DNA of 9,881 nucleotides from a virus (Duplodnaviria; Heunggongvirae; Uroviricota; Caudoviricetes). The first letter of the stretch is position 1. Each line of letters begins with the position of its first letter. The stretch lies in IMG/VR virus record IMGVR_UViG_2675903425_000022; one strand, written 5' to 3'. The notes beneath the pieces were generated by a model. That model did no database searches, had not been told where the DNA came from, and saw only the letters and a program-made list of their open reading frames with translations. Both the position numbers and the translations under genes were made by a program. Of this stretch, positions 1,503 to 7,195 are shown in pieces.

Positions 1503-2594
1503 TCACCCCCTGAATCCCGGCGGAATTTCGGTATCCGGTTCAGAAATATGATTCACACAACGCTGGTTGTTCGTGCCGCTTACCGGGAGCAACCAGGGGT
1601 TTTCAAAATTCCGGTCCGGCCCAAAAAACGTCGTCGCTCGCTGAACAAATTCCGTTCCCGCTTTCCCGGTCGCCGCCAGGTATCTCGCGTAACGCCTCAC
1701 ACCATCCAGCATGGTCTCTGGTGGCACCCCCTCGCGCAATCTGGCCTTCCAGGCACTGAAAGCGGATTTCTTCGGGTTTGCCCCAGCACGCAACGGGTAT
1801 TCCCGCCAGACCTGTTCGAACACATCCGGATAATCCACTCGTCCCACAGACTGCCCGGTGCTTTCCGGGACTACCCGATCGGCTTCCCGCTGAATGGCGG
1901 AATCGGCTTCAGGCTGCTGCAGTTGGTGTGATTGCTCCGACCCTGCGGTCATCACCTGCTGCACAGCGCCCGAATCGGCTTCCGGTGTCGTGCCTGCTGG
2001 CTGACCAGGATTGACGGTCTGAACATCCCCTGCCTGGTTCGTGGTGTTTTTTTTGCCATGAACCATAGTGTTTTTGTCCTGTTCCTGTTCTTTCTCCTGC
2101 TCCTGTTCCTGTTCTTGGCTTCGAAGCCCCTTAAAAGCCCCTTCGAAGCCCCTTACCGAATTTCGGCTATTATTCCGCCTCACATCCAGATGGAAATCCG
2201 TTTTATATCTGTCGTAAAACACTGACAGAAAAGCGTTTTCAGGTAATGATGCATACTCATTCCTGACACCTGCACAACGGTTATCGCCAGGCTTCAACGT
2301 TTCCCCAACCTGCCAGGCTGCCATTTCATGGACCCAGACCATCTCTGCATCATGGTCATAGCTACAAAAACCAGCTTCAACAGCCCTTTTAAGCCCCTTT
2401 GAAGCCCCTTCCAGACCAAGCCCGGTTTCATGAGCAAGGTATAAAACTGGCAGGTAATACAAACCCAGCATATTTGCGTGAGGGGATGTCATCAGGTAAA
2501 AAGCAACAACTTGCGCTTCTGCACCCGCCTTTCTAAGTTCTCTCCCCGTTTCTCCCAGCCAGAATCGCGGAGAAACTTTTGCGTAATCACGCAT
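1503..2594 (-). CDS. Replication initiator / replisome organizer (O-like); alternative upstream start at 2705
   Basis: Long ORF immediately upstream of, and tightly coupled to, the DnaC-like gene, which is the classic O-P arrangement. I place the start at M38 (MRDYAKVSPRFWLGETG..., top CAT 2592-2594) because GAGGT lies 5 nt upstream; the longest ORF start (2705) has no Shine-Dalgarno. The gene contains two clusters of iteron-like repeats and an (EQ)n linker (see repeat features). Confidence 0.65.
   Translation of the reverse strand: MRDYAKVSPRFWLGETGRELRKAGAEAQVVAFYLMTSPHANMLGLYYLPVLYLAHETGLGLEGASKGLKRAVEAGFCSYDHDAEMVWVHEMAAWQVGETLKPGDNRCAGVRNEYASLPENAFLSVFYDRYKTDFHLDVRRNNSRNSVRGFEGAFKGLRSQEQEQEQEKEQEQDKNTMVHGKKNTTNQAGDVQTVNPGQPAGTTPEADSGAVQQVMTAGSEQSHQLQQPEADSAIQREADRVVPESTGQSVGRVDYPDVFEQVWREYPLRAGANPKKSAFSAWKARLREGVPPETMLDGVRRYARYLAATGKAGTEFVQRATTFFGPDRNFENPWLLPVSGTNNQRCVNHISEPDTEIPPGFRG
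2078..2113. repeat. Imperfect tandem hexanucleotide repeat (CCTGTT)n, about 6 units, in frame within the initiator gene
   Basis: Read directly: cctgtt cctgtt ctttct cctgct cctgtt cctgtt. On the minus strand it encodes QEQEQEQEKEQEQ in the initiator. Confidence 0.8.
2123..2154. repeat. Iteron-like cluster 1: three tandem copies of (G/A)AAGCCCCTT at 11-bp spacing
   Basis: Read directly: GAAGCCCCTT (2123-2132), AAAGCCCCTT (2134-2143), GAAGCCCCTT (2145-2154). Flanked on the low-coordinate side by the hexamer repeat and a T-rich stretch (2040-2076). Confidence 0.7.
2382..2410. repeat. Iteron-like cluster 2: three tandem copies of the AAGCCCC(T)TT unit at about 10-bp spacing
   Basis: Read directly: AGCCCTTTT, AAGCCCCTTT, GAAGCCCCTT. 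Same core as cluster 1, about 230 bp away, inside the same gene. Confidence 0.7.
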
Positions 2595-2672
2595 GGCTAC
2601 CTCATCTGGTGCCGAACCTTCCTCCGGATATAATCTGTGGTTCCCAATCGACAGAACCAGAGGAGGTTCGAC

Positions 2673-3128
2673 ATGTATTTTTTGAAAAGCCTTTATCAGG
2701 CTCATGTATTAAATGTTGCAGCAACAAACCGCTGGTGTAACAGCCCCGAAATGCTCCCGGATTACAGAGCCTGGCTGCGCGCCGAAACATACCTTCGTCT
2801 CGACATATTGATTAGCGAACTTCAAAAAGAGACTGCATCCATTCATAACCTTCAGGGTATCGACGCTGTTCGCATTCTGGTATCGCGCCATAGTGCTCTC
2901 TCAATAATTGAAGTGCGTCATCTCTCTTTTTCTGAACTGATTTTCTTGCTTCAACCAGCTCTGGAATCAGCGAATATCCCGCCGGAAGTGATCCAATACC
3001 CACCTCATGTTGACGAGCAGTTACAAGATGTGCCATACAACCAGCGTGCTGGATTGACTCCCTGCTCAGAGGCTGAATGGGATCACTCTCTGCTGAAGAA
3101 ATACCAAGATTTGTATAATCCTCAATAA
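2673..3128 (+). CDS. Hypothetical protein (151 aa) antisense to the minus-strand operon; candidate independently expressed moron
   Basis: ATG at 2673 is preceded by a perfect AGGAGG (2660-2665, 7-nt spacer) and a perfect TATAAT (2629-2634) about 38 nt upstream. No family recognised from the translation (MYFLKSLYQAHVLNVAATNRW...). It overlaps the minus-strand ORF 2812..3321; only one of the two may be real. Confidence 0.3.
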   Translation: MYFLKSLYQAHVLNVAATNRWCNSPEMLPDYRAWLRAETYLRLDILISELQKETASIHNLQGIDAVRILVSRHSALSIIEVRHLSFSELIFLLQPALESANIPPEVIQYPPHVDEQLQDVPYNQRAGLTPCSEAEWDHSLLKKYQDLYNPQ

Positions 3129-3321
3129 GCCCGGCACACGCTTCTGCATCAGCCAGCTTTATTCTGGTTTCCTTGCGCTGTTCTCTGGCTGACAAACGCC
3201 AGAGCAGCGCATTAGCTTTATGTATCAACCACTCTGCCAGCTCCACATCAGATAAACCGCCACGCCAGATGTGCGGACTGTTTTCGTAAACGCTCAGTGT
3301 CAATTTTTTGTCATTACTCAT
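2812..3321 (-). CDS. Hypothetical protein (169 aa) between the CII-like gene and the initiator
   Basis: ORF in the same orientation as the operon, with ATG at 3321 starting 13 nt after the stop of the YdaT-like gene. Weak Shine-Dalgarno (TGGGTAA); an alternative GTG start at 3372 would overlap the upstream gene. The translation is charged and helical-looking (MSNDKKLTLSVYENSPHIWRGGLSDVELAEWLIHKANALLWRL...). No family recognised. Confidence 0.4.
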   Translation of the reverse strand: MSNDKKLTLSVYENSPHIWRGGLSDVELAEWLIHKANALLWRLSAREQRKETRIKLADAEACAGLIEDYTNLGISSAESDPIQPLSRESIQHAGCMAHLVTARQHEVGIGSLPAGYSLIPELVEARKSVQKKRDDALQLLREHYGAIPECEQRRYPEGYEWMQSLFEVR

Positions 3322-3334
3322 ATTTATTACCCAA

Positions 3335-3825
3335 TTAATGCACAGCCAGAGTGTTTCCTGCCGGGCCACCACGATTCATCTGATCGAACAGAACGATCGC
3401 TGATGCAACGAAATCATCAATATCTTTCACCAGCCGTTCCTTCGTCTCTACCAACTCCCGAAAATAAGCGGAACTGTGGCTGCGCATTCGGGCCACCAGC
3501 GGAGGCGGCATCGCTTTTTCGATCGCTGGTAACAACGCCTGAATTTTTTTAACCGCATCAGGAGTGTCTTTCTCCACCCAGCGGAAAATTTTCTGAGTAT
3601 TGCGAGCCATGGCTTCCGGATGGCTGTCGTCATACAGTTCCGGGAACGTCATTCCCAGCTCGAAATACGCTTNNNNNNNNNNNNNNNNNNNNNNNNNNNN
3701 NNNNNNNNNNNNNNNNNNNNNNGCTCGAAATACGCTTTGGTAATTTTCGCAGCCGGTACTTTTTCGCCGTCCGGATGCGCCCAGGCATTCATCGCCATGC
3801 GGATGTGTTCATGCTTGATTTTCAT
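3335..3825 (-). CDS. ydaT: YdaT-like (CII-analogous) regulatory protein; ORF interrupted by a 50-N gap
   Basis: ATG at 3825 (top CAT 3823-3825) with GGAG 7 nt upstream. N-terminus is MKIKHEHIRMAMNAWAHPDGEKVPAAKITKAYFE up to the gap, and the translation resumes after it as LGMTFPELYDDSHPEAM...GNTLAVH. Removing the gap and one copy of the duplicated 15-mer gives a continuous 426-nt ORF (141 aa), the size recalled for YdaT. Position after the Cro-like gene fits. Confidence 0.7.
3673..3722. other. Run of 50 N (scaffold gap), flanked by identical 15-mers
   Basis: gctcgaaatacgctt occurs at 3658-3672 and again at 3723-3737, immediately on either side of the N run. Confidence 0.95.
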
Positions 3826-4081
3826 GAATCAACTCCGGCGCATTTGATGTGTTAACCTTACATCCAACAGGTAAACCGTCGGTTGGGTTAGGATAAATAT
3901 CTGGGCGGATTTCATGCGGGGTAACTTCCCACTTCATTAGTTGGCATAACGGAATTACCTGCTTTGGGGGAACGCCAAAGCTAAACCATTGCCAAACAGT
4001 CTGTTGAGCGACCCCCATATAACGACCTATTTCAGCCTGAGTGTATTTCTGCCTAATTTTTTCGCGAGTGCTATCTAGCAT
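3809..4081 (-). CDS. ydaS: Cro-like HTH regulator (YdaS-like), first gene of the minus-strand early operon
   Basis: 90-aa ORF with a classic HTH (TQAEIGRYMGVAQQTVWQW). ATG at 4081 with GGAGG 6 nt upstream. It is divergent from the plus-strand repressor-like gene across a 108-bp region holding a perfect palindrome. The 3' end overlaps the YdaT-like start by 17 nt. Confidence 0.75.
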   Translation of the reverse strand: MLDSTREKIRQKYTQAEIGRYMGVAQQTVWQWFSFGVPPKQVIPLCQLMKWEVTPHEIRPDIYPNPTDGLPVGCKVNTSNAPELIHENQA

Positions 4082-4114
4082 TTTGCCCTCCTCTAAAAAC
4101 TATAAGCAAAGCCT

Positions 4115-4153
4115 ACAATAAAAAACTGTATGCAATCAACAGTTTTTTATTGT
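4115..4153. promoter_or_regulatory. Putative operator: perfect 15-bp inverted repeat ACAATAAAAAACTGT / ACAGTTTTTTATTGT with 9-bp spacer, in the divergent promoter region
   Basis: Read directly. Additional ACAG/CTGT half-site-like motifs follow at 4162-4177. Location between the Cro-like and repressor-like genes. Confidence 0.6.
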
Positions 4154-4189
4154 GATGCTTTTAACAGTATTTACCTGTAAAATTGAATA

Positions 4190-4591
4190 ATGATGAGCGC
4201 CCTAGAAGTATCTATGTACAGAATCAGCAAGCTTCTTCAGGAAACTGGATGGAGCCAGGCTGAGCTTGCCCGTAGAATTGGTGTGACACAACAAACTGTT
4301 CAACAATGGGTCAGCGGTAAGGCTACACCTAAAGCCTCAAGTTTGGATAAACTGGTTGAGGTTTCAGGGCATCCATTGCATTGGTTTTTATTGCCTCCTG
4401 AAGAGTGTGAGCAAATTTTCACCCCTGACACGATGAAAATTGGTCCTCGCCAACGCGAACTGCTCCAAGCTTTTAGTGCGTTTCCTGAGGAAGACCAAGA
4501 AAAAATGCTTCAAGAAATCAAAGACAAGAAAAAATCAATGGAAGAAACCATTGCTAGGTGGCTGGCGGCACAAAAAAGCCGCCGGGCGTGA
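4190..4591 (+). CDS. paaR2: HTH (XRE-family) transcriptional regulator, PaaR2-like; occupies the CI-repressor position
   Basis: 133-aa ORF with HTH (SQAELARRIGVTQQTVQQWVSGK) and no LexA-type peptidase domain. It is first in a three-gene operon with a 63-aa antitoxin and a ParE toxin, matching the paaR2-paaA2-parE2 arrangement recalled from E. coli O157 prophage CP-933P. There is no Shine-Dalgarno before ATG 4190, so it may be leaderless or start at ATG 4214. Confidence 0.75.
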   Translation: MMSALEVSMYRISKLLQETGWSQAELARRIGVTQQTVQQWVSGKATPKASSLDKLVEVSGHPLHWFLLPPEECEQIFTPDTMKIGPRQRELLQAFSAFPEEDQEKMLQEIKDKKKSMEETIARWLAAQKSRRA

Positions 4592-4618
4592 CCACAGTAC
4601 AAGAAGAGGAGTTATGCC

Positions 4619-4810
4619 ATGGGTACAGCCCTTTCTCCGATAGTTTCAGAATTCGAAACTACCGAACAAGAAAACAGTTACAACGAATGGTTGCGCACTA
4701 AAGTAACGTCAAGCCTTGCAGACACTCGCCCCGCAATTCCACATGACGAGGTAATGGCTGAAATGGAAAATCTTATTGCTCAAATTGCTGTAACTAACAA
4801 GAGCGAGTAA
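4619..4810 (+). CDS. paaA2: Small antitoxin of the ParE module (PaaA2-like)
   Basis: 63-aa acidic ORF (MGTALSPIVSEFETTEQENSYNEWLRTKV...). GAGGA 8 nt upstream of the ATG; its stop overlaps the toxin start (TAATG). Size and position match PaaA2 as recalled. Confidence 0.7.
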   Translation: MGTALSPIVSEFETTEQENSYNEWLRTKVTSSLADTRPAIPHDEVMAEMENLIAQIAVTNKSE

Positions 4811-5097
4811 TGTTACCCATTTTATGGCTACCGTCTGCTCGCGATGATTTGCGCCAGATCATAACTTACATCGCCAAGGAGAACCCACCGGCAGCACGTA
4901 GACTAAAAATACGCATTGAAACATCGGTATTACCTCTATCTGAGCATCCGTACTTATATCCACCAAGCGAACGGGTTTCTGGATTGAGAGAGATCGTGAC
5001 CCACCCTAACTACATAATCCTGTACAGAGTAGCTGCTTCAAGCATTGAGATTGTAAGCGTGACACATTCTCGGCGACAATTTCCCTTCTCTATCTGA
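4810..5097 (+). CDS. parE2: ParE/RelE-family toxin (ParE2-like)
   Basis: 95-aa ORF translationally coupled to the antitoxin. Sequence ...RQIITYIAKENPPAARRLKIRIETSVLPLSEHPYLYPPSERVSGLREIVTHPNYIILYRV... is typical of ParE/RelE-fold toxins. Confidence 0.8.
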   Translation: MLPILWLPSARDDLRQIITYIAKENPPAARRLKIRIETSVLPLSEHPYLYPPSERVSGLREIVTHPNYIILYRVAASSIEIVSVTHSRRQFPFSI

Positions 5098-5115
5098 GTT
5101 GAACAATTTTCATAC

Positions 5116-5138
5116 TCCCTCTTTCGAGGGATTTTTTT
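5116..5138 (+). terminator. Intrinsic terminator after the toxin gene
   Basis: Stem TCCCTC (5116-5121), loop TTTC, stem GAGGGA (5126-5131), followed by TTTTTTT (5132-5138). Confidence 0.65.
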
Positions 5139-5148
5139 GCCCAAAACA

Positions 5149-5188
5149 ACAATTAAAAACTGTTGACACAAAAACAGTTTTTTATTGT
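5149..5188. promoter_or_regulatory. Second copy of the operator palindrome (one mismatch) with a consensus -35 TTGACA in its spacer; putative promoter/operator of the dicB-type operon
   Basis: ACAATTAAAAACTGT (5149-5163), spacer TGACACAAAA, ACAGTTTTTTATTGT (5174-5188). TTGACA at 5163-5168. The right half is identical to the right half of the 4115-4153 palindrome. No clean -10 at 17-bp spacing. Confidence 0.5.
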
Positions 5189-5374
5189 AGATTACATACA
5201 CCAACCACCCACCCCGCCCCACAGAACGCCGGGCAATACTTCGAGTTACCAAGCAGTGGTCAGGGGGTAAGTAGCCAGCCCGAGGCGTATGAACATGACG
5301 GCAGGGTTCAACTTTAATAACTATGCAGCAGGTTTTTGTTCCGCTACCCGGCGTTAAGGGGAAATGAGGTCAAC

Positions 5375-5530
5375 ATGGATACTATCGATCTTGGCAACAA
5401 CGAATCTCTGGTGTACGGCGTGTTTCCCAACCAGGACGGTACATTCACCGCGATGACGTATACCAAAAGCAAAACGTTTAAAACCGAAAATGGTGCCCGT
5501 CGCTGGCTGGAAAGAAACTCAGGTGAGTGA
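5375..5530 (+). CDS. YdfA/YdaF-like small protein (51 aa, DUF1391-type)
   Basis: ATG at 5375 with GAGG 7 nt upstream; MDTIDLGNNESLVYGVFPNQDGTFTAMTYTKSKTFKTENGARRWLERNSGE. It is the first gene after the second operator, as ydfA is in the Qin dicB operon (recalled). Confidence 0.7.
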   Translation: MDTIDLGNNESLVYGVFPNQDGTFTAMTYTKSKTFKTENGARRWLERNSGE

Positions 5531-5531
5531 T

Positions 5532-5660
5532 ATGGATTTCGACACAATCATGGAAAAGGCTTACGAAGAATACTTCGAAGGCCTTGCCGAAGGCGAGGAA
5601 GCTCTCAGCTTCAGTGAGTTTAAACAGGCGCTTTCCAGTTCGGCAAAATCTAACGACTAA
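5532..5660 (+). CDS. YdfB-like small protein (42 aa); absent from the supplied ORF track because of its size
   Basis: ATG at 5532 lies 1 nt after the upstream stop, with AGGTGAG upstream. Translation MDFDTIMEKAYEEYFEGLAEGEEALSFSEFKQALSSSAKSND ends at TAA 5658-5660. Confidence 0.6.
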   Translation: MDFDTIMEKAYEEYFEGLAEGEEALSFSEFKQALSSSAKSND

Positions 5661-5671
5661 CGGAGTTAAAG

Positions 5672-6210
5672 ATGGAATTTAAAGATTTACTAAAAGAAAT
5701 CCAGGAAATTGCAGCACATGCACTTCACCAACGTCTGAACGAAGTTGAATTAGAATCTGCAACGAAGAAATACATTGATAATATGGCTCGTAATGTGCGC
5801 GATGCGTTTACCGGATTGTACTCTGTTTCGGTAACAAACAACCAGAATACTGAAGAAACTGCAAAGCGGATTGCCTCGGTGATGGGTTTTCATGTCGAGG
5901 AAAAGTATTCAAAAAAAGAATTCTGGAAAACTACAAAAAAATTGCAGAGCGAGAACTGTCATCTCCTGCGGCAATCGCTTCTTTCTATGAGGAAAGTTAT
6001 TCAGATGACACAGGATTACCGGAACTGCTCTCATTACTTGAAAAATTCGGAATTATCATGAAAGGGACTGCGTCGGCGGATTTCACATACTCAATGATGG
6101 CTGCTGATGGAGAGCCTTTTCCTCCCGAACTTAAAATAACCCCCGGCAATCATCCGATGGTAACAATAAGAGCAATAGAGAATTACTGGTTTAATCCAGT
6201 TCAACAATAG
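5672..6210 (+). pseudogene. ydfC-position gene split by a -1 frameshift at A7 runs (apparent pseudogene, sequencing error, or programmed slip)
   Basis: Frame-2 ORF 5672-6061 (GGAG 6 nt upstream) reads naturally to ...EEKYSKKEF, then becomes Cys/His-rich and low-complexity. The -1 frame is open from 5854 to TAG 6208-6210 and reads naturally (IAERELSSPAAIASFYEESYSDDTGLPELLSLLEKFGIIMKGTASADF...NYWFNPVQQ). Two A7 runs (5911-5917, 5935-5941) sit at the transition. Confidence 0.5.
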
Positions 6211-6768: not shown

Positions 6769-6821
6769 ATTCTGGTGACATTTGGCGGTATCAGTTTTAC
6801 TCCGTAACTGCTCTGCCGCCC
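6769..6821 (+). ncRNA. dicF: DicF small RNA homolog (53 nt)
   Basis: ATTCTGGTGACATTTGGCGGTATCAGTTTTACTCCGTAACTGCTCTGCCGCCC differs at 3 of 53 positions from the K-12 DicF sequence as I recall it (TTTCTGGTGACGTTTGGCGGTATCAGTTTTACTCCGTGACTGCTCTGCCGCCC). It is followed by TTTTTT and located just upstream of dicB, as in Qin. Confidence 0.8.
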
Positions 6822-7006: not shown

Positions 7007-7195
7007 ATGGAAAAGTTATCATGTAATGCCAGCACGTCTGAACTTCGTTTCGAAATTGGCGTTATCACTGGAGACAAAACATTTATTGAAGACGCCATTA
7101 AGCAGAGAAAACTCGAGCAGGACCTGTTAAATGAAGTATGCATTCCTTCAATGCTGGCTCGTCTGGACCTGCTGCAAAAAGGATATAAACAATGA
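7007..7195 (+). CDS. dicB: DicB-like cell-division inhibitor (62 aa)
   Basis: MEKLSCNASTSELRFEIGVITGDKTFIEDAIKQRKLEQDLLNEVCIPSMLARLDLLQKGYKQ aligns along its length with K-12 DicB as recalled (...FEIGVTISNPVFTEDAINKRKQERELLNKICIVSMLARLRL...). GAGGA 7 nt upstream of the ATG; directly downstream of dicF. Confidence 0.85.
   Translation: MEKLSCNASTSELRFEIGVITGDKTFIEDAIKQRKLEQDLLNEVCIPSMLARLDLLQKGYKQ

What the first reader, a model, noticed from the sequence alone, without database searches (positions are those of the whole stretch)
4082..5138. Three-component ParE toxin module in the prophage repressor position (likely a described system)
The gene divergent from cro is an HTH regulator followed by a 63-aa antitoxin and a ParE toxin, closed by an intrinsic terminator, rather than a stand-alone CI-like repressor. 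This matches the paaR2-paaA2-parE2 system I recall from E. coli O157:H7 prophage CP-933P, where the regulator acts with the Cro-like and CII-like proteins. So it is probably not new, but it means the immunity function and an addiction module are fused here. The regulator gene has no Shine-Dalgarno before its first ATG, and AATAAT lies just upstream, so it may be translated from a leaderless transcript as lambda cI is from PRM.
Basis: partly seen in the sequence, partly recalled or inferred. Interest (0 to 1): 0.5.

Follow-up and report, generated by a model that had tools for sequence, protein, structure and literature searches.

The report
Known prophage repressor–ParE toxin–antitoxin operon
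This is the already described repressor–antitoxin–ParE toxin operon of a cryptic lambda-like prophage of E. coli O157:H7 (the CP-933M copy, a sister of the well-studied paaR2-paaA2-parE2), so it is real and tidy but not new.

Summary
An HTH regulator (4190-4591), a 63-aa PaaA antitoxin (4619-4810) and a 95-aa ParE toxin (4810-5097) form one operon. It runs divergent from a Cro-like gene and ends at a hairpin plus T7 (5116-5138).

The DNA is 100% identical to E. coli O157:H7 EDL933 at 1.254-1.256 Mb. It is therefore not the CP-933P paaR2-paaA2-parE2 locus but its paralogue. The literature places that paralogue on CP-933M (paaR1-paaA1-parE1).

Compared with the true type-2 locus:
- ParE is 67% identical and PaaA 70%.
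- YdaT (CII analogue) is 90% identical.
- The regulator matches only in its C-terminal 98 residues (42%); its HTH domain is different.
- The Cro-like proteins are unrelated, and the operators differ. The two prophages therefore look heteroimmune.

I found five 15-bp operators (ACAGT-N5-ACTGT), three at OR and two at OL. They are laid out as in lambda and recur in Salmonella and Morganella relatives.

The leaderless idea is supported. TAAAAT + 6 nt + ATG is conserved across genera, and lambda cI and the experimentally leaderless paaR2 have the same geometry.

Relatives of the regulator carry other cargo or none, so the TA is a rexAB-position passenger.

Verdict: already known, low interest.

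The parts
3335..3825 (-). ydaT (CII analogue). In this window it is split by an artificial 50-N gap plus a 15-nt duplication (3658-3737).
   Evidence: Pfam YdaT_toxin. The intact 141-aa EDL933 protein is 90% identical to YdaT of the CP-933P-type locus. The gap is seen and adds 65 bases relative to EDL933.
3815..3832 (.). YdaT operator (OM-like), TTGATTTTCATGAATCAA, at the ydaS/ydaT junction. It is the presumed control site of a PRE-like promoter.
   Evidence: Exact match to TTGATTN6AATCAA, the only one in the window; 0.10 expected by chance. The motif and its position were defined for CP-933P YdaT in PMC9986795.
3809..4081 (-). ydaS (Cro analogue), with SD GAGGAGGG at 4087-4094.
   Evidence: Pfam YdaS_toxin, 38.8 bits. 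No detectable similarity to YdaS of the CP-933P-type locus or to DicC.
4110..4139 (-). Candidate PR: -35 TTGATT (4139-4134), 18-nt spacer, -10 TAGGCT (4115-4110). Inferred, not called by the scan tool.
   Evidence: Read from the sequence. It has the same layout as the PL candidate. One search did not list it.
4115..4129 (.). Operator O1 (ACAATAAAAAACTGT), inside the PR spacer.
   Evidence: Conserved in Salmonella, Morganella and Klebsiella.
4139..4153 (.). Operator O2 (ACAGTTTTTTATTGT). Centre at -44 from the regulator ATG; it abuts the PR -35.
   Evidence: Lambda OR2 is at -42.
4164..4178 (.). Operator O3 (ACAGTATTTACCTGT). Centre at -19; it overlaps the PRM core.
   Evidence: Lambda OR3 is at -19.
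4178..4183 (+). PRM -10 TAAAAT, 6 nt before ATG 4190. The predicted transcript start is the A of the start codon, giving a leaderless mRNA.
   Evidence: The geometry is conserved in 6 loci, including the experimentally leaderless paaR2 type, and in lambda cI (PMC8630535).
4190..4591 (+). paaR1-type regulator (133 aa). It has an N-terminal HTH_3 domain and a C-terminal PaaR/DicA-type domain, and no S24 peptidase domain.
4619..4810 (+). paaA1-type antitoxin (63 aa), with SD GAGGAG at 4606-4611.
   Evidence: Pfam PaaA2, 68 bits. PDB 3zbe/5cw7, E 1.4e-20. 70% identical to PaaA2.
4810..5097 (+). parE1-type toxin (95 aa). Its start overlaps the paaA stop (TAATG).
   Evidence: Pfam ParE_toxin. PDB 5cw7_B, E 3e-36. 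67% identical to ParE2.
5116..5138 (+). Intrinsic terminator-like hairpin plus T7.
5149..5193 (+). OL/PL region: OL1 5149-5163, -35 TTGACA 5163-5168, OL2 5174-5188, -10 TAGATT 5188-5193 (19-nt spacer). The promoter is inferred.
   Evidence: Salmonella and Morganella have a pair of operators in the same position. PL933P is described in PMC8630535.
5375..7195 (+). PL-side operon: ydfA (5375-5530), ydfB (5532-5660), a 129-aa ORF (5672-6061), DicF sRNA (6770-6821) and dicB (about 7007-7195).
   Evidence: EDL933 annotation, Pfam DUF1391, Rfam DicF 76.9 bits, comparison with Qin.

Best explanation
The locus is the immunity operon of a defective lambdoid prophage of E. coli O157:H7. It is the CP-933M paralogue (paaR1-paaA1-parE1) of the characterised paaR2-paaA2-parE2 system.

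**Regulator.** It works like lambda CI.
- Its N-terminal HTH binds 15-bp ACAGT-N5-ACTGT operators: three between the divergent promoters (O1-O3) and two downstream of the operon (OL1-2).
- This shuts off PR (ydaS/cro - ydaT/cII - replication genes) and PL (ydfA - dicF - dicB).
- Occupancy of O2 (-44) and O3 (-19) would tune its own promoter.
- Its C-terminal domain is shared with PaaR2 and DicA and presumably mediates oligomerisation. It has no RecA-cleavable domain.
- It is translated from a leaderless mRNA that begins at the A of ATG 4190.

**Toxin-antitoxin pair.** paaA and parE ride on the same transcript in the position of lambda rexAB. PaaA, which has no DNA-binding domain, wraps and neutralises ParE, a gyrase/topoisomerase-type poison. 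Loss or silencing of the immunity region would then be penalised (addiction).

**Other regulators.** YdaS acts as Cro. YdaT acts as CII through the TTGATTN6AATCAA site.

**What is shown and what is inferred.**
- Shown here: sequence identity, homologies, operator and promoter geometry, and their conservation.
- Shown in the literature for the paralogue: leaderless translation, operator binding, bistability and addiction.
- Inferred for this copy: all binding, promoter and toxicity steps.
For: **Identity.** 100% identical to EDL933 at 1254184-1256519, with the integrase/exonuclease/dicB order expected of CP-933M. Jurenas 2021 states that a homologue of paaR2-paaA2-parE2 lies on CP-933M. A review reports that PaaA1/ParE1 and PaaA2/ParE2 do not cross-neutralise.

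**Family assignments.** Pfam and PDB hits.

**Paralogue rather than system 2.**
- ParE 67% and PaaA 70% identical.
- PaaR similar only over residues 37-133.
- YdaS unrelated; YdaT 90%.
- PaaR2 of the comparison locus starts MQKKE, as sequenced in the paper.

**Operators.**
- 5 matches to ACAGT-N5-ACTGT at up to 1 mismatch, against 0.20 expected, all at OR or OL.
- The same 3+2 or 2+2 layout occurs in independent Salmonella and Morganella loci: 5 matches against 0.09 expected, and 4 against 0.07.
- The motif is absent from the CP-933P-type locus, and the CP-933P GTTTAGT repeat is absent from OR and OL here.
- Operator centres lie at -19/-44/-68, against lambda's -19/-42/-66.

**Leaderless start.**
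- N-terminal residues 3-11 are conserved across genera, so translation starts at 4190 or 4193.
- A TAnAAT hexamer + 6 nt + ATG, with a variable and SD-free spacer, occurs in E. coli, Salmonella, Klebsiella and Morganella. It also occurs in the paaR2 type and in lambda cI.

**Cargo view.** Homologous regulators are followed by other genes or by none. DicA of Qin, which has a related C-terminal domain (E 6e-12), is followed directly by ydfA.
Against: - There is no direct experimental data for this copy in the papers I could read. Hallez et al. 2010 is not held.
- The consensus scanner did not call PR, PRM or PL. PRM has a poor -35, and the PR and PL candidates need 18-19-nt spacers and weak -10 hexamers.
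- The operator motif was derived from this sequence before it was tested elsewhere.
- Klebsiella relatives have altered half-sites (ACAAG/CTTGT) despite an almost identical predicted recognition helix. So which protein, the repressor or the Cro-like one, reads which bases is open.
- The terminator hairpin is short (6 bp) and not energetically exceptional.
- The CP-933M assignment rests on coordinates and gene order plus a literature statement, not on an annotated prophage label.
Confidence: 0.88

Rival explanations
1. It is the CP-933P paaR2-paaA2-parE2 locus itself, which is the literal reading of the first reader's recollection.
For: Same gene order and neighbours. All three proteins are significantly similar. 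YdaT is 90% identical.
Against: - ParE is 67% and PaaA 70% identical to the crystallised or published proteins.
- The regulator's N-terminus is MMSALEVS..., not MQKKE, and its HTH domain does not align.
- The Cro-like proteins are unrelated.
- The operators differ.
- The exact sequence maps to EDL933 at 1.25 Mb, next to the integrase/exoVIII/dicB order of O-island 44 (CP-933M).
Confidence: 0.02
2. The regulator is a dedicated third component of the toxin-antitoxin system, that is, a true tripartite TA that co-evolves as a unit. On this view it is not a prophage immunity repressor that happens to carry a TA passenger.
For: - This is the original description as a three-component TA (Hallez 2010, as summarised).
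- The three genes are tightly packed: a 27-nt gap and a 1-nt overlap.
- Two further E. coli variants keep the R-A-E order.
Against: - Regulators 80% (Salmonella) and 68% (Klebsiella) identical sit in the same immunity context with unrelated cargo. A 69%-identical Morganella regulator has no cargo, with OL directly downstream.
- The regulator's operators flank and control PR-type and PL-type promoters, not only its own.
- The HTH domain has been swapped independently of the TA.
Confidence: 0.08
3. The regulator is translated from a leadered mRNA, or from the internal ATG at 4214 (giving a 125-aa form), by SD-independent or weak-SD initiation. On this view it is not translated from a leaderless transcript.
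For: - Some database entries annotate a 125-aa form (for example 'DicA' of IHE3034).
- GAAG lies 5 nt before ATG 4214.
- A YdaT-activated PRE-type transcript would necessarily carry a long leader.
- There is no TSS data for this copy.
Against: - Residues 3-11 (xAxE[IV]SMYR) upstream of M9 are conserved at the protein level in Salmonella, Klebsiella, Raoultella, Pluralibacter and Morganella.
- The -10-like hexamer keeps a fixed 6-nt distance from the first ATG while the spacer sequence drifts.
- The paralogue and lambda cI, which have the same geometry, are experimentally leaderless.
Confidence: 0.12
4. The main role of the PaaA-ParE pair is anti-phage defence (abortive infection or exclusion, like lambda RexAB in the same position), not addiction or stabilisation of the prophage.
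For: - It occupies the rexAB position between the repressor gene and OL.
- This slot holds variable cargo in relatives, which is typical of defence hot-spots.
Against: - For the paralogue, the only role shown is addiction of the immunity region; no toxin release was seen in either transcriptional state (abstract and introduction of PMC8630535).
- There is no defence evidence in anything I read, and I did not run PADLOC.
Confidence: 0.15

Closest known systems
paaR2-paaA2-parE2 with ydaS-ydaT, immunity region of CP-933P, E. coli O157:H7 (Hallez 2010; Jurenas 2021, PMC8630535)
   Same: - Gene order R-A-E, divergent from ydaS-ydaT.
- PaaA (70%) and ParE (67%) are homologous.
- The C-terminal half of the regulator is homologous (42% over 98 aa).
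- YdaT is 90% identical, with the identical TTGATTN6AATCAA site.
- Same -10 + 6 nt + ATG leaderless geometry.
- A second operator/promoter set lies downstream (PL/OL).
   Different: - The regulator's HTH domain does not align.
- The Cro-like protein is unrelated.
- Operators are ACAGT-N5-ACTGT 15-mers (3 + 2) instead of GTTTAGTAA-type 18-bp palindromes.
- The terminator is different.
- According to the literature, the antitoxins do not cross-neutralise.
Lambda cI-rexA-rexB with OR/OL, PRM/PR/PL
   Same: - Divergent repressor/cro layout.
- Three operators at nearly the same distances from the repressor start: -19/-44/-68 here, -19/-42/-66 in lambda.
- Leaderless repressor mRNA geometry (hexamer + 6 nt + ATG).
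- A passenger module sits between the repressor gene and OL.
- A second operator cluster lies at PL.
   Different: - No sequence homology beyond the generic HTH.
- No S24/LexA-type autocleavage domain.
- 15-bp rather than 17-bp operators, and two rather than three OL sites.
- The cargo is a ParE TA, not RexAB.
- The CII analogue is a YdaT POU-type protein.
DicA-DicC and the dicBF operon of the Qin prophage, E. coli K-12
   Same: - DicA aligns with the regulator over 111 aa (28%, E 6e-12), including the C-terminal LLxxFxxLPExxQ segment.
- The downstream operon ydfA-ydfB-...-DicF-dicB is the same as in the window.
   Different: - Qin has no PaaA-ParE: ydfA follows dicA after one intergenic region.
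- DicC is unrelated to this YdaS.
Classical two-gene parDE (RK2, Vibrio cholerae parDE2)
   Same: ParE-fold toxin neutralised by a small protein encoded just upstream.
   Different: In parDE the antitoxin ParD carries the DNA-binding domain and autoregulates. Here the antitoxin has only the PaaA2 toxin-binding segment, and regulation is delegated to a separate prophage repressor.

Membership tests
ParE toxin (RelE/ParE superfamily, Pfam PF05016) | Full-length match to the ParE_toxin profile above the curated cut-off | tested here: met
   63.5 bits against a cut-off of 23, covering profile positions 1-89 of 89. PDB ParE2 5cw7_B, E 3e-36, residues 1-93.
PaaA antitoxin (Pfam PF21217) | PaaA2 toxin-binding segment present, with no DNA-binding domain | tested here: met
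   68.3 bits against a cut-off of 27, the only Pfam hit of the 63-aa protein. PaaA2 3zbe, E 1.4e-20. 70% identical to PaaA2.
PaaR-type regulator | C-terminal domain homologous to PaaR2 | tested here: met
   42% identity over 98 aa, E 1e-20. The last 45 residues or so are nearly collinear (alignment A1).
PaaR-type regulator | N-terminal DNA-binding domain and operator specificity shared with PaaR2 | tested here: not met
   BLASTP gives no alignment for residues 1-36. The CP-933P GTTTAGT repeats are absent from OR and OL here. The motif found here is absent from the CP-933P-type locus.
paaR-paaA-parE three-gene operon | Order R-A-E on one strand, close-packed, with a promoter upstream of R and a terminator after E | tested here: met
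   Gaps of 27 nt and -1 nt. -10 at 4178-4183. Terminator at 5116-5138. No + strand terminator between the genes.
paaR-paaA-parE three-gene operon | Toxin is toxic and is neutralised only by the cognate antitoxin | not testable with these tools
   Reported for PaaA1/ParE1 against PaaA2/ParE2 by Hallez 2010, as summarised in PMC4803016. The primary paper is not held.
CP-933P paaR2-paaA2-parE2 locus (identity with it) | Near-identical sequence; PaaR2 N-terminus MQKKE | tested here: not met
   67-70% identity for the TA proteins and a different regulator N-terminus. The window maps at 100% to EDL933 at 1.25 Mb.
Lambda CI / LexA family repressor | C-terminal S24 peptidase (RecA-stimulated autocleavage) domain | tested here: not met
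   Only HTH-type Pfam hits and no Peptidase_S24 hit. The PDB hits are confined to the HTH domain (434 repressor residues 5-60).
Leaderless repressor mRNA (as lambda cI and paaR2) | Transcript 5' end coincides with the A of the start codon | tested here: inconclusive
   The geometry (-10 hexamer + 6 nt + ATG, no SD) is conserved in 6 loci and in lambda, and the N-terminus is conserved. There is no TSS measurement for this copy.

The most novel reading that the evidence does not exclude
The CP-933M-type immunity region may be an uncharacterised heteroimmune version of the PaaR switch. On this reading:
- A portable PaaR/DicA-type C-terminal oligomerisation module is joined to a different HTH.
- That HTH reads ACAGT-N5-ACTGT operators arranged with lambda-like spacing (3 at OR, 2 at OL).
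- The slot between the repressor gene and OL is a cargo hot-spot across Enterobacterales. It holds PaaA-ParE in E. coli, an EACC1-like protein in Salmonella, an unknown 84+170-aa pair in Klebsiella, and nothing in Morganella and Qin.

As far as the papers I could read go, none of this has been shown experimentally for this copy.
Probability: 0.6. Interest if true: 0.3.

Novelty: already known. Interest (0 to 1): 0.15.

Why it matters
It matters little as a discovery. The exact sequence sits in the reference O157:H7 genome and in hundreds of others, and the system type has been dissected genetically, biochemically and structurally.

Its modest value is comparative. With the CP-933P copy it forms a natural pair: the toxin-antitoxin, the CII analogue and the repressor's C-terminal domain are conserved, while the repressor's HTH, Cro and the operators have been exchanged. 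That pair would be a clean system for testing three things:
- how immunity specificity is swapped in PaaR-type switches;
- whether the two resident prophages are truly heteroimmune;
- whether leaderless translation is a general property of this repressor family.

Tried and rejected
- **Hallez et al. 2010, the primary description of system 1.** The library does not hold it, so the names paaR1/paaA1/parE1 and the CP-933M location rest on secondary statements.
- **PDB sequence search with the regulator.** It found only generic HTH domains (434 repressor, HipB) and no PaaR2 entry. No structural inference could be made for the C-terminal domain.
- **Consensus promoter scan.** It called none of PR, PRM or PL. 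Its only promoter hit is inside parE on the minus strand and is below chance expectation. I discarded that hit, and my promoter assignments remain inferences from geometry and conservation.
- **Locating the CP-933P copy in EDL933.** I searched the E. coli genomes with the type-2 locus. EDL933 was not among the 60 rows listed, so the comparison used phage Evi, whose ParE2 is 100% identical to the crystallised protein.
- **First half-site guess, AAAAACTGT.** This gave a nested-palindrome picture. I replaced it with the 15-bp ACAGT-N5-ACTGT operator, which transfers to other genera.
- **Phage Tritos and the other phage megablast hits.** They share only ydaT and ydfA/B with the window and carry a different CI/Cro and no TA.
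- **Start at ATG 4214.** Considered and rejected on N-terminal conservation.
- **Not run.** Structure prediction, PADLOC and the large protein-representative search, because the identity was already settled.
Full report
**1. Observation**

- On the + strand there are three ORFs: 133 aa (4190-4591), 63 aa (4619-4810) and 95 aa (4810-5097). The last starts on the TAATG overlap with the preceding stop.
- A 90-aa gene runs divergently at 3809-4081.
- Pfam assigns the four proteins to HTH_3 (47 bits), PaaA2 (68 bits), ParE_toxin (63.5 bits) and YdaS (38.8 bits). All are above the curated cut-offs.
- The PDB sequence search hits the crystallised E. coli O157 ParE2 (E 3e-36) and PaaA2 (E 1.4e-20).
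- A hairpin TCCCTC-TTTC-GAGGGA followed by seven T lies at 5116-5138. Its energy is not exceptional (z -1.27), but its form and its position 18 nt after the stop are canonical.
- There is no Shine-Dalgarno before ATG 4190. By contrast paaA has GAGGAG and cro has GAGGAGGG.
- The one inaccurate detail is the 'AATAAT just upstream'. It spans 4186-4191 and so overlaps the ATG.

**2. Where the sequence comes from**

- Window 3300-5700 is 100% identical to many O157:H7 chromosomes, including EDL933 at 1254184-1256519. In all, 485 of 5426 complete E. coli genomes carry at least 80% of this stretch.
- In EDL933 the neighbourhood is a lambdoid prophage: integrase, exonuclease VIII, dicB, ydfA/B, the three genes, then ydaS, ydaT and replication genes.
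- The integrase/exoVIII/dicB order matches Z1323-Z1326 of O-island 44 (CP-933M). CP-933M is one of three EDL933 islands that carry dicBF.
- Jurenas et al. 2021 state that a homologue of paaR2-paaA2-parE2 lies on CP-933M. Reviews name the two paralogous systems and report that PaaA1 does not neutralise ParE2, and vice versa.
- The primary paper (Hallez 2010) is not held.

**3. The paralogue, not system 2**

I retrieved a bona fide type-2 locus from phage Evi. Its ParE is 100% identical to the crystallised ParE2, and its regulator begins MQKKE, the N-terminus determined experimentally for PaaR2. Against it:

| Protein | Similarity to the type-2 locus |
|---|---|
| ParE | 67% identical |
| PaaA | 70% identical |
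| YdaT | 90% identical |
| Regulator | 42%, residues 37-133 only; HTH region does not align |
| YdaS (Cro-like) | no detectable similarity |

- The GTTTAGT-type repeats that form the CP-933P operators (visible) are absent from the control regions here.
- This is classical lambdoid mosaicism. The immunity determinants (HTH, cro, operators) have been exchanged. The C-terminal domain, the TA and the CII analogue are retained.

**4. Control elements**

*Operators*
- The intergenic region holds a perfect 15+15-nt inverted repeat, and a near-copy lies just after the terminator.
- These resolve into 15-bp sites of the form ACAGT-N5-ACTGT: 4115-4129, 4139-4153 and 4164-4178 (OR), and 5149-5163 and 5174-5188 (OL). 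That is five matches at up to 1 mismatch against 0.20 expected, with none elsewhere in the window.
- I derived the motif from this sequence, so I tested it on independent loci.
  - A Salmonella prophage whose regulator is 80% identical has three sites at OR and two at OL (5 against 0.09 expected).
  - A Morganella one has two plus two (4 against 0.07).
  - The intergenic alignment of four genera keeps the ACA...TGT columns invariant.
  - The type-2 locus has none.
- Relative to the regulator ATG the site centres are -19, -44 and -68. Lambda OR3, OR2 and OR1 lie at -19, -42 and -66 from the cI ATG.

*Promoter candidates*
- PR: TTGATT-18-TAGGCT.
- PL: TTGACA-19-TAGATT.
- Both have the same design, with one operator abutting the -35 and one inside the spacer.
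- They are inferences. The scanner did not call them.

*YdaT site*
- The YdaT recognition sequence TTGATTN6AATCAA occurs once, at 3815-3832, on the ydaS/ydaT junction. That is where the OM operator lies in CP-933P.

**5. Leaderless translation**

- Homologues from Salmonella, Klebsiella, Raoultella, Pluralibacter and Morganella conserve residues 3-11 (E6 and R11 invariant; Y10 nearly so). Translation therefore begins at ATG 4190 or 4193, not at 4214. Some database entries nevertheless use the 125-aa form.
- In every locus a -10-like hexamer sits exactly 6 nt before the first ATG, and the 6-nt spacer varies and never resembles an SD:

| Locus | -10 hexamer + 6-nt spacer + start |
|---|---|
| Window | TAAAAT-tgaata-ATG |
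| Salmonella | TAAAAT-cgagaa-ATG |
| Klebsiella | TAAAAT-ttacca-ATG |
| Morganella | TAGAAT-ttacgg-ATG |
| Third E. coli type | TAAAAT-gaatgc-ATG |

- The paaR2 type has GATAAT-taccac-ATG and is experimentally leaderless. Lambda cI has TAGATT-taacgt-ATG.
No TSS has been measured for this copy.

**6. Repressor plus passenger**

- The regulator family always sits divergent from ydaS-ydaT in lambdoid prophages, but what follows it varies:
  - PaaA-ParE in three E. coli types (this window).
  - A 112-120-aa protein with a sub-threshold EACC1 match in Salmonella.
  - An overlapping 84+170-aa pair without Pfam hits in Klebsiella.
  - Nothing in Morganella, where OL follows the regulator directly.
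- DicA of Qin aligns with the regulator over 111 residues (E 6e-12), including the C-terminal LLxxFxxLPExxQ segment. It is followed directly by ydfA-ydfB-...-DicF-dicB, the same operon that lies behind the PL candidate here.
- The TA thus occupies the rexAB slot between the repressor gene and OL. This agrees with the published view of CP-933P.
- The regulator has no S24 peptidase domain. It works like CI but is not a CI/LexA-family member.

**7. Verdict**

- The finding is real and correctly interpreted in kind, but it is an already described system in a reference genome.
- The corrections are the paralogue assignment, the swapped DNA-binding module and operators, and the identity of the -10.
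- What remains untested for this copy: operator occupancy, heteroimmunity with CP-933P, the TSS, toxicity, and the biological role (addiction or defence).
- Interest is low (0.15).
- The most novel reading not excluded is an uncharacterised heteroimmune PaaR switch with lambda-like operator geometry and a cargo hot-spot. It would be a modest comparative result.

Noticed in passing
window 3658-3737: A run of 50 N (3673-3722) is flanked by an exact 15-nt duplication, gctcgaaatacgctt. It adds 65 bases relative to EDL933 and splits ydaT into two ORFs. It looks like a scaffolding-gap artefact from a draft assembly, not biology.
   Followed up: yes
window 6770-6821 (+), with dicB at about 7007-7195: DicF antisense sRNA (Rfam 76.9 bits; gathering score 48) and dicB lie downstream of the PL candidate. 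The PL-side operon is therefore the Qin-type ydfA-ydfB-...-dicF-dicB cell-division-inhibition operon.
   Followed up: partly
window 2637-3128 (+): A + strand ORF lies antisense within the PR-side operon, between the replication gene and ydaT. RefSeq annotates it in EDL933 as 'ECs1072 family phage-associated protein'. It has no Pfam hit, and a 186-aa minus-strand ORF (2812-3372) overlaps it.
   Followed up: no
L004/L005 3053-3415; L006 2984-3747; L010 2897-3046: The slot between the PaaR-type repressor gene and OL holds different cargo in other genera. Salmonella has a 112-120-aa protein with a sub-threshold EACC1 match. Klebsiella has an overlapping 84+170-aa gene pair with no Pfam hit, which could be another two-gene module. 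Morganella has nothing there.
   Followed up: partly
L008 2486-3402: This is a third E. coli paaR-paaA-parE variant: the regulator is 64% identical and ParE is 93 aa. The called start of the regulator seems to miss three codons (MKR). The upstream ATG restores the TAAAAT + 6 nt + ATG geometry.
   Followed up: partly
phage collection against E. coli genomes: Only 1 of 50,697 deposited phage genomes (phage Evi) encodes a ParE2-like toxin by tblastn. By contrast 485 and 595 of 5426 complete E. coli genomes carry the type-1 and type-2 loci respectively. The module seems concentrated in resident, often defective, prophages.
   Followed up: no
L006 2420-2490 against window 4115-4178: The Klebsiella relative has operator half-sites ACAAG/CTTGT instead of ACAGT/ACTGT, changed on both arms of O1 and partly in O2 and O3. 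Yet the regulator's predicted recognition helix is almost unchanged (VTQQTVQQWV). The differing bases may be read by the Cro-like protein or by another part of the repressor.
   Followed up: no
window 1503-2705 (-): The replication-organiser-like ORF contains a QEQEQEKEQEQ low-complexity run and has no Pfam hit. RefSeq starts it later, giving 363 aa against 400 aa from the first ATG.
   Followed up: no
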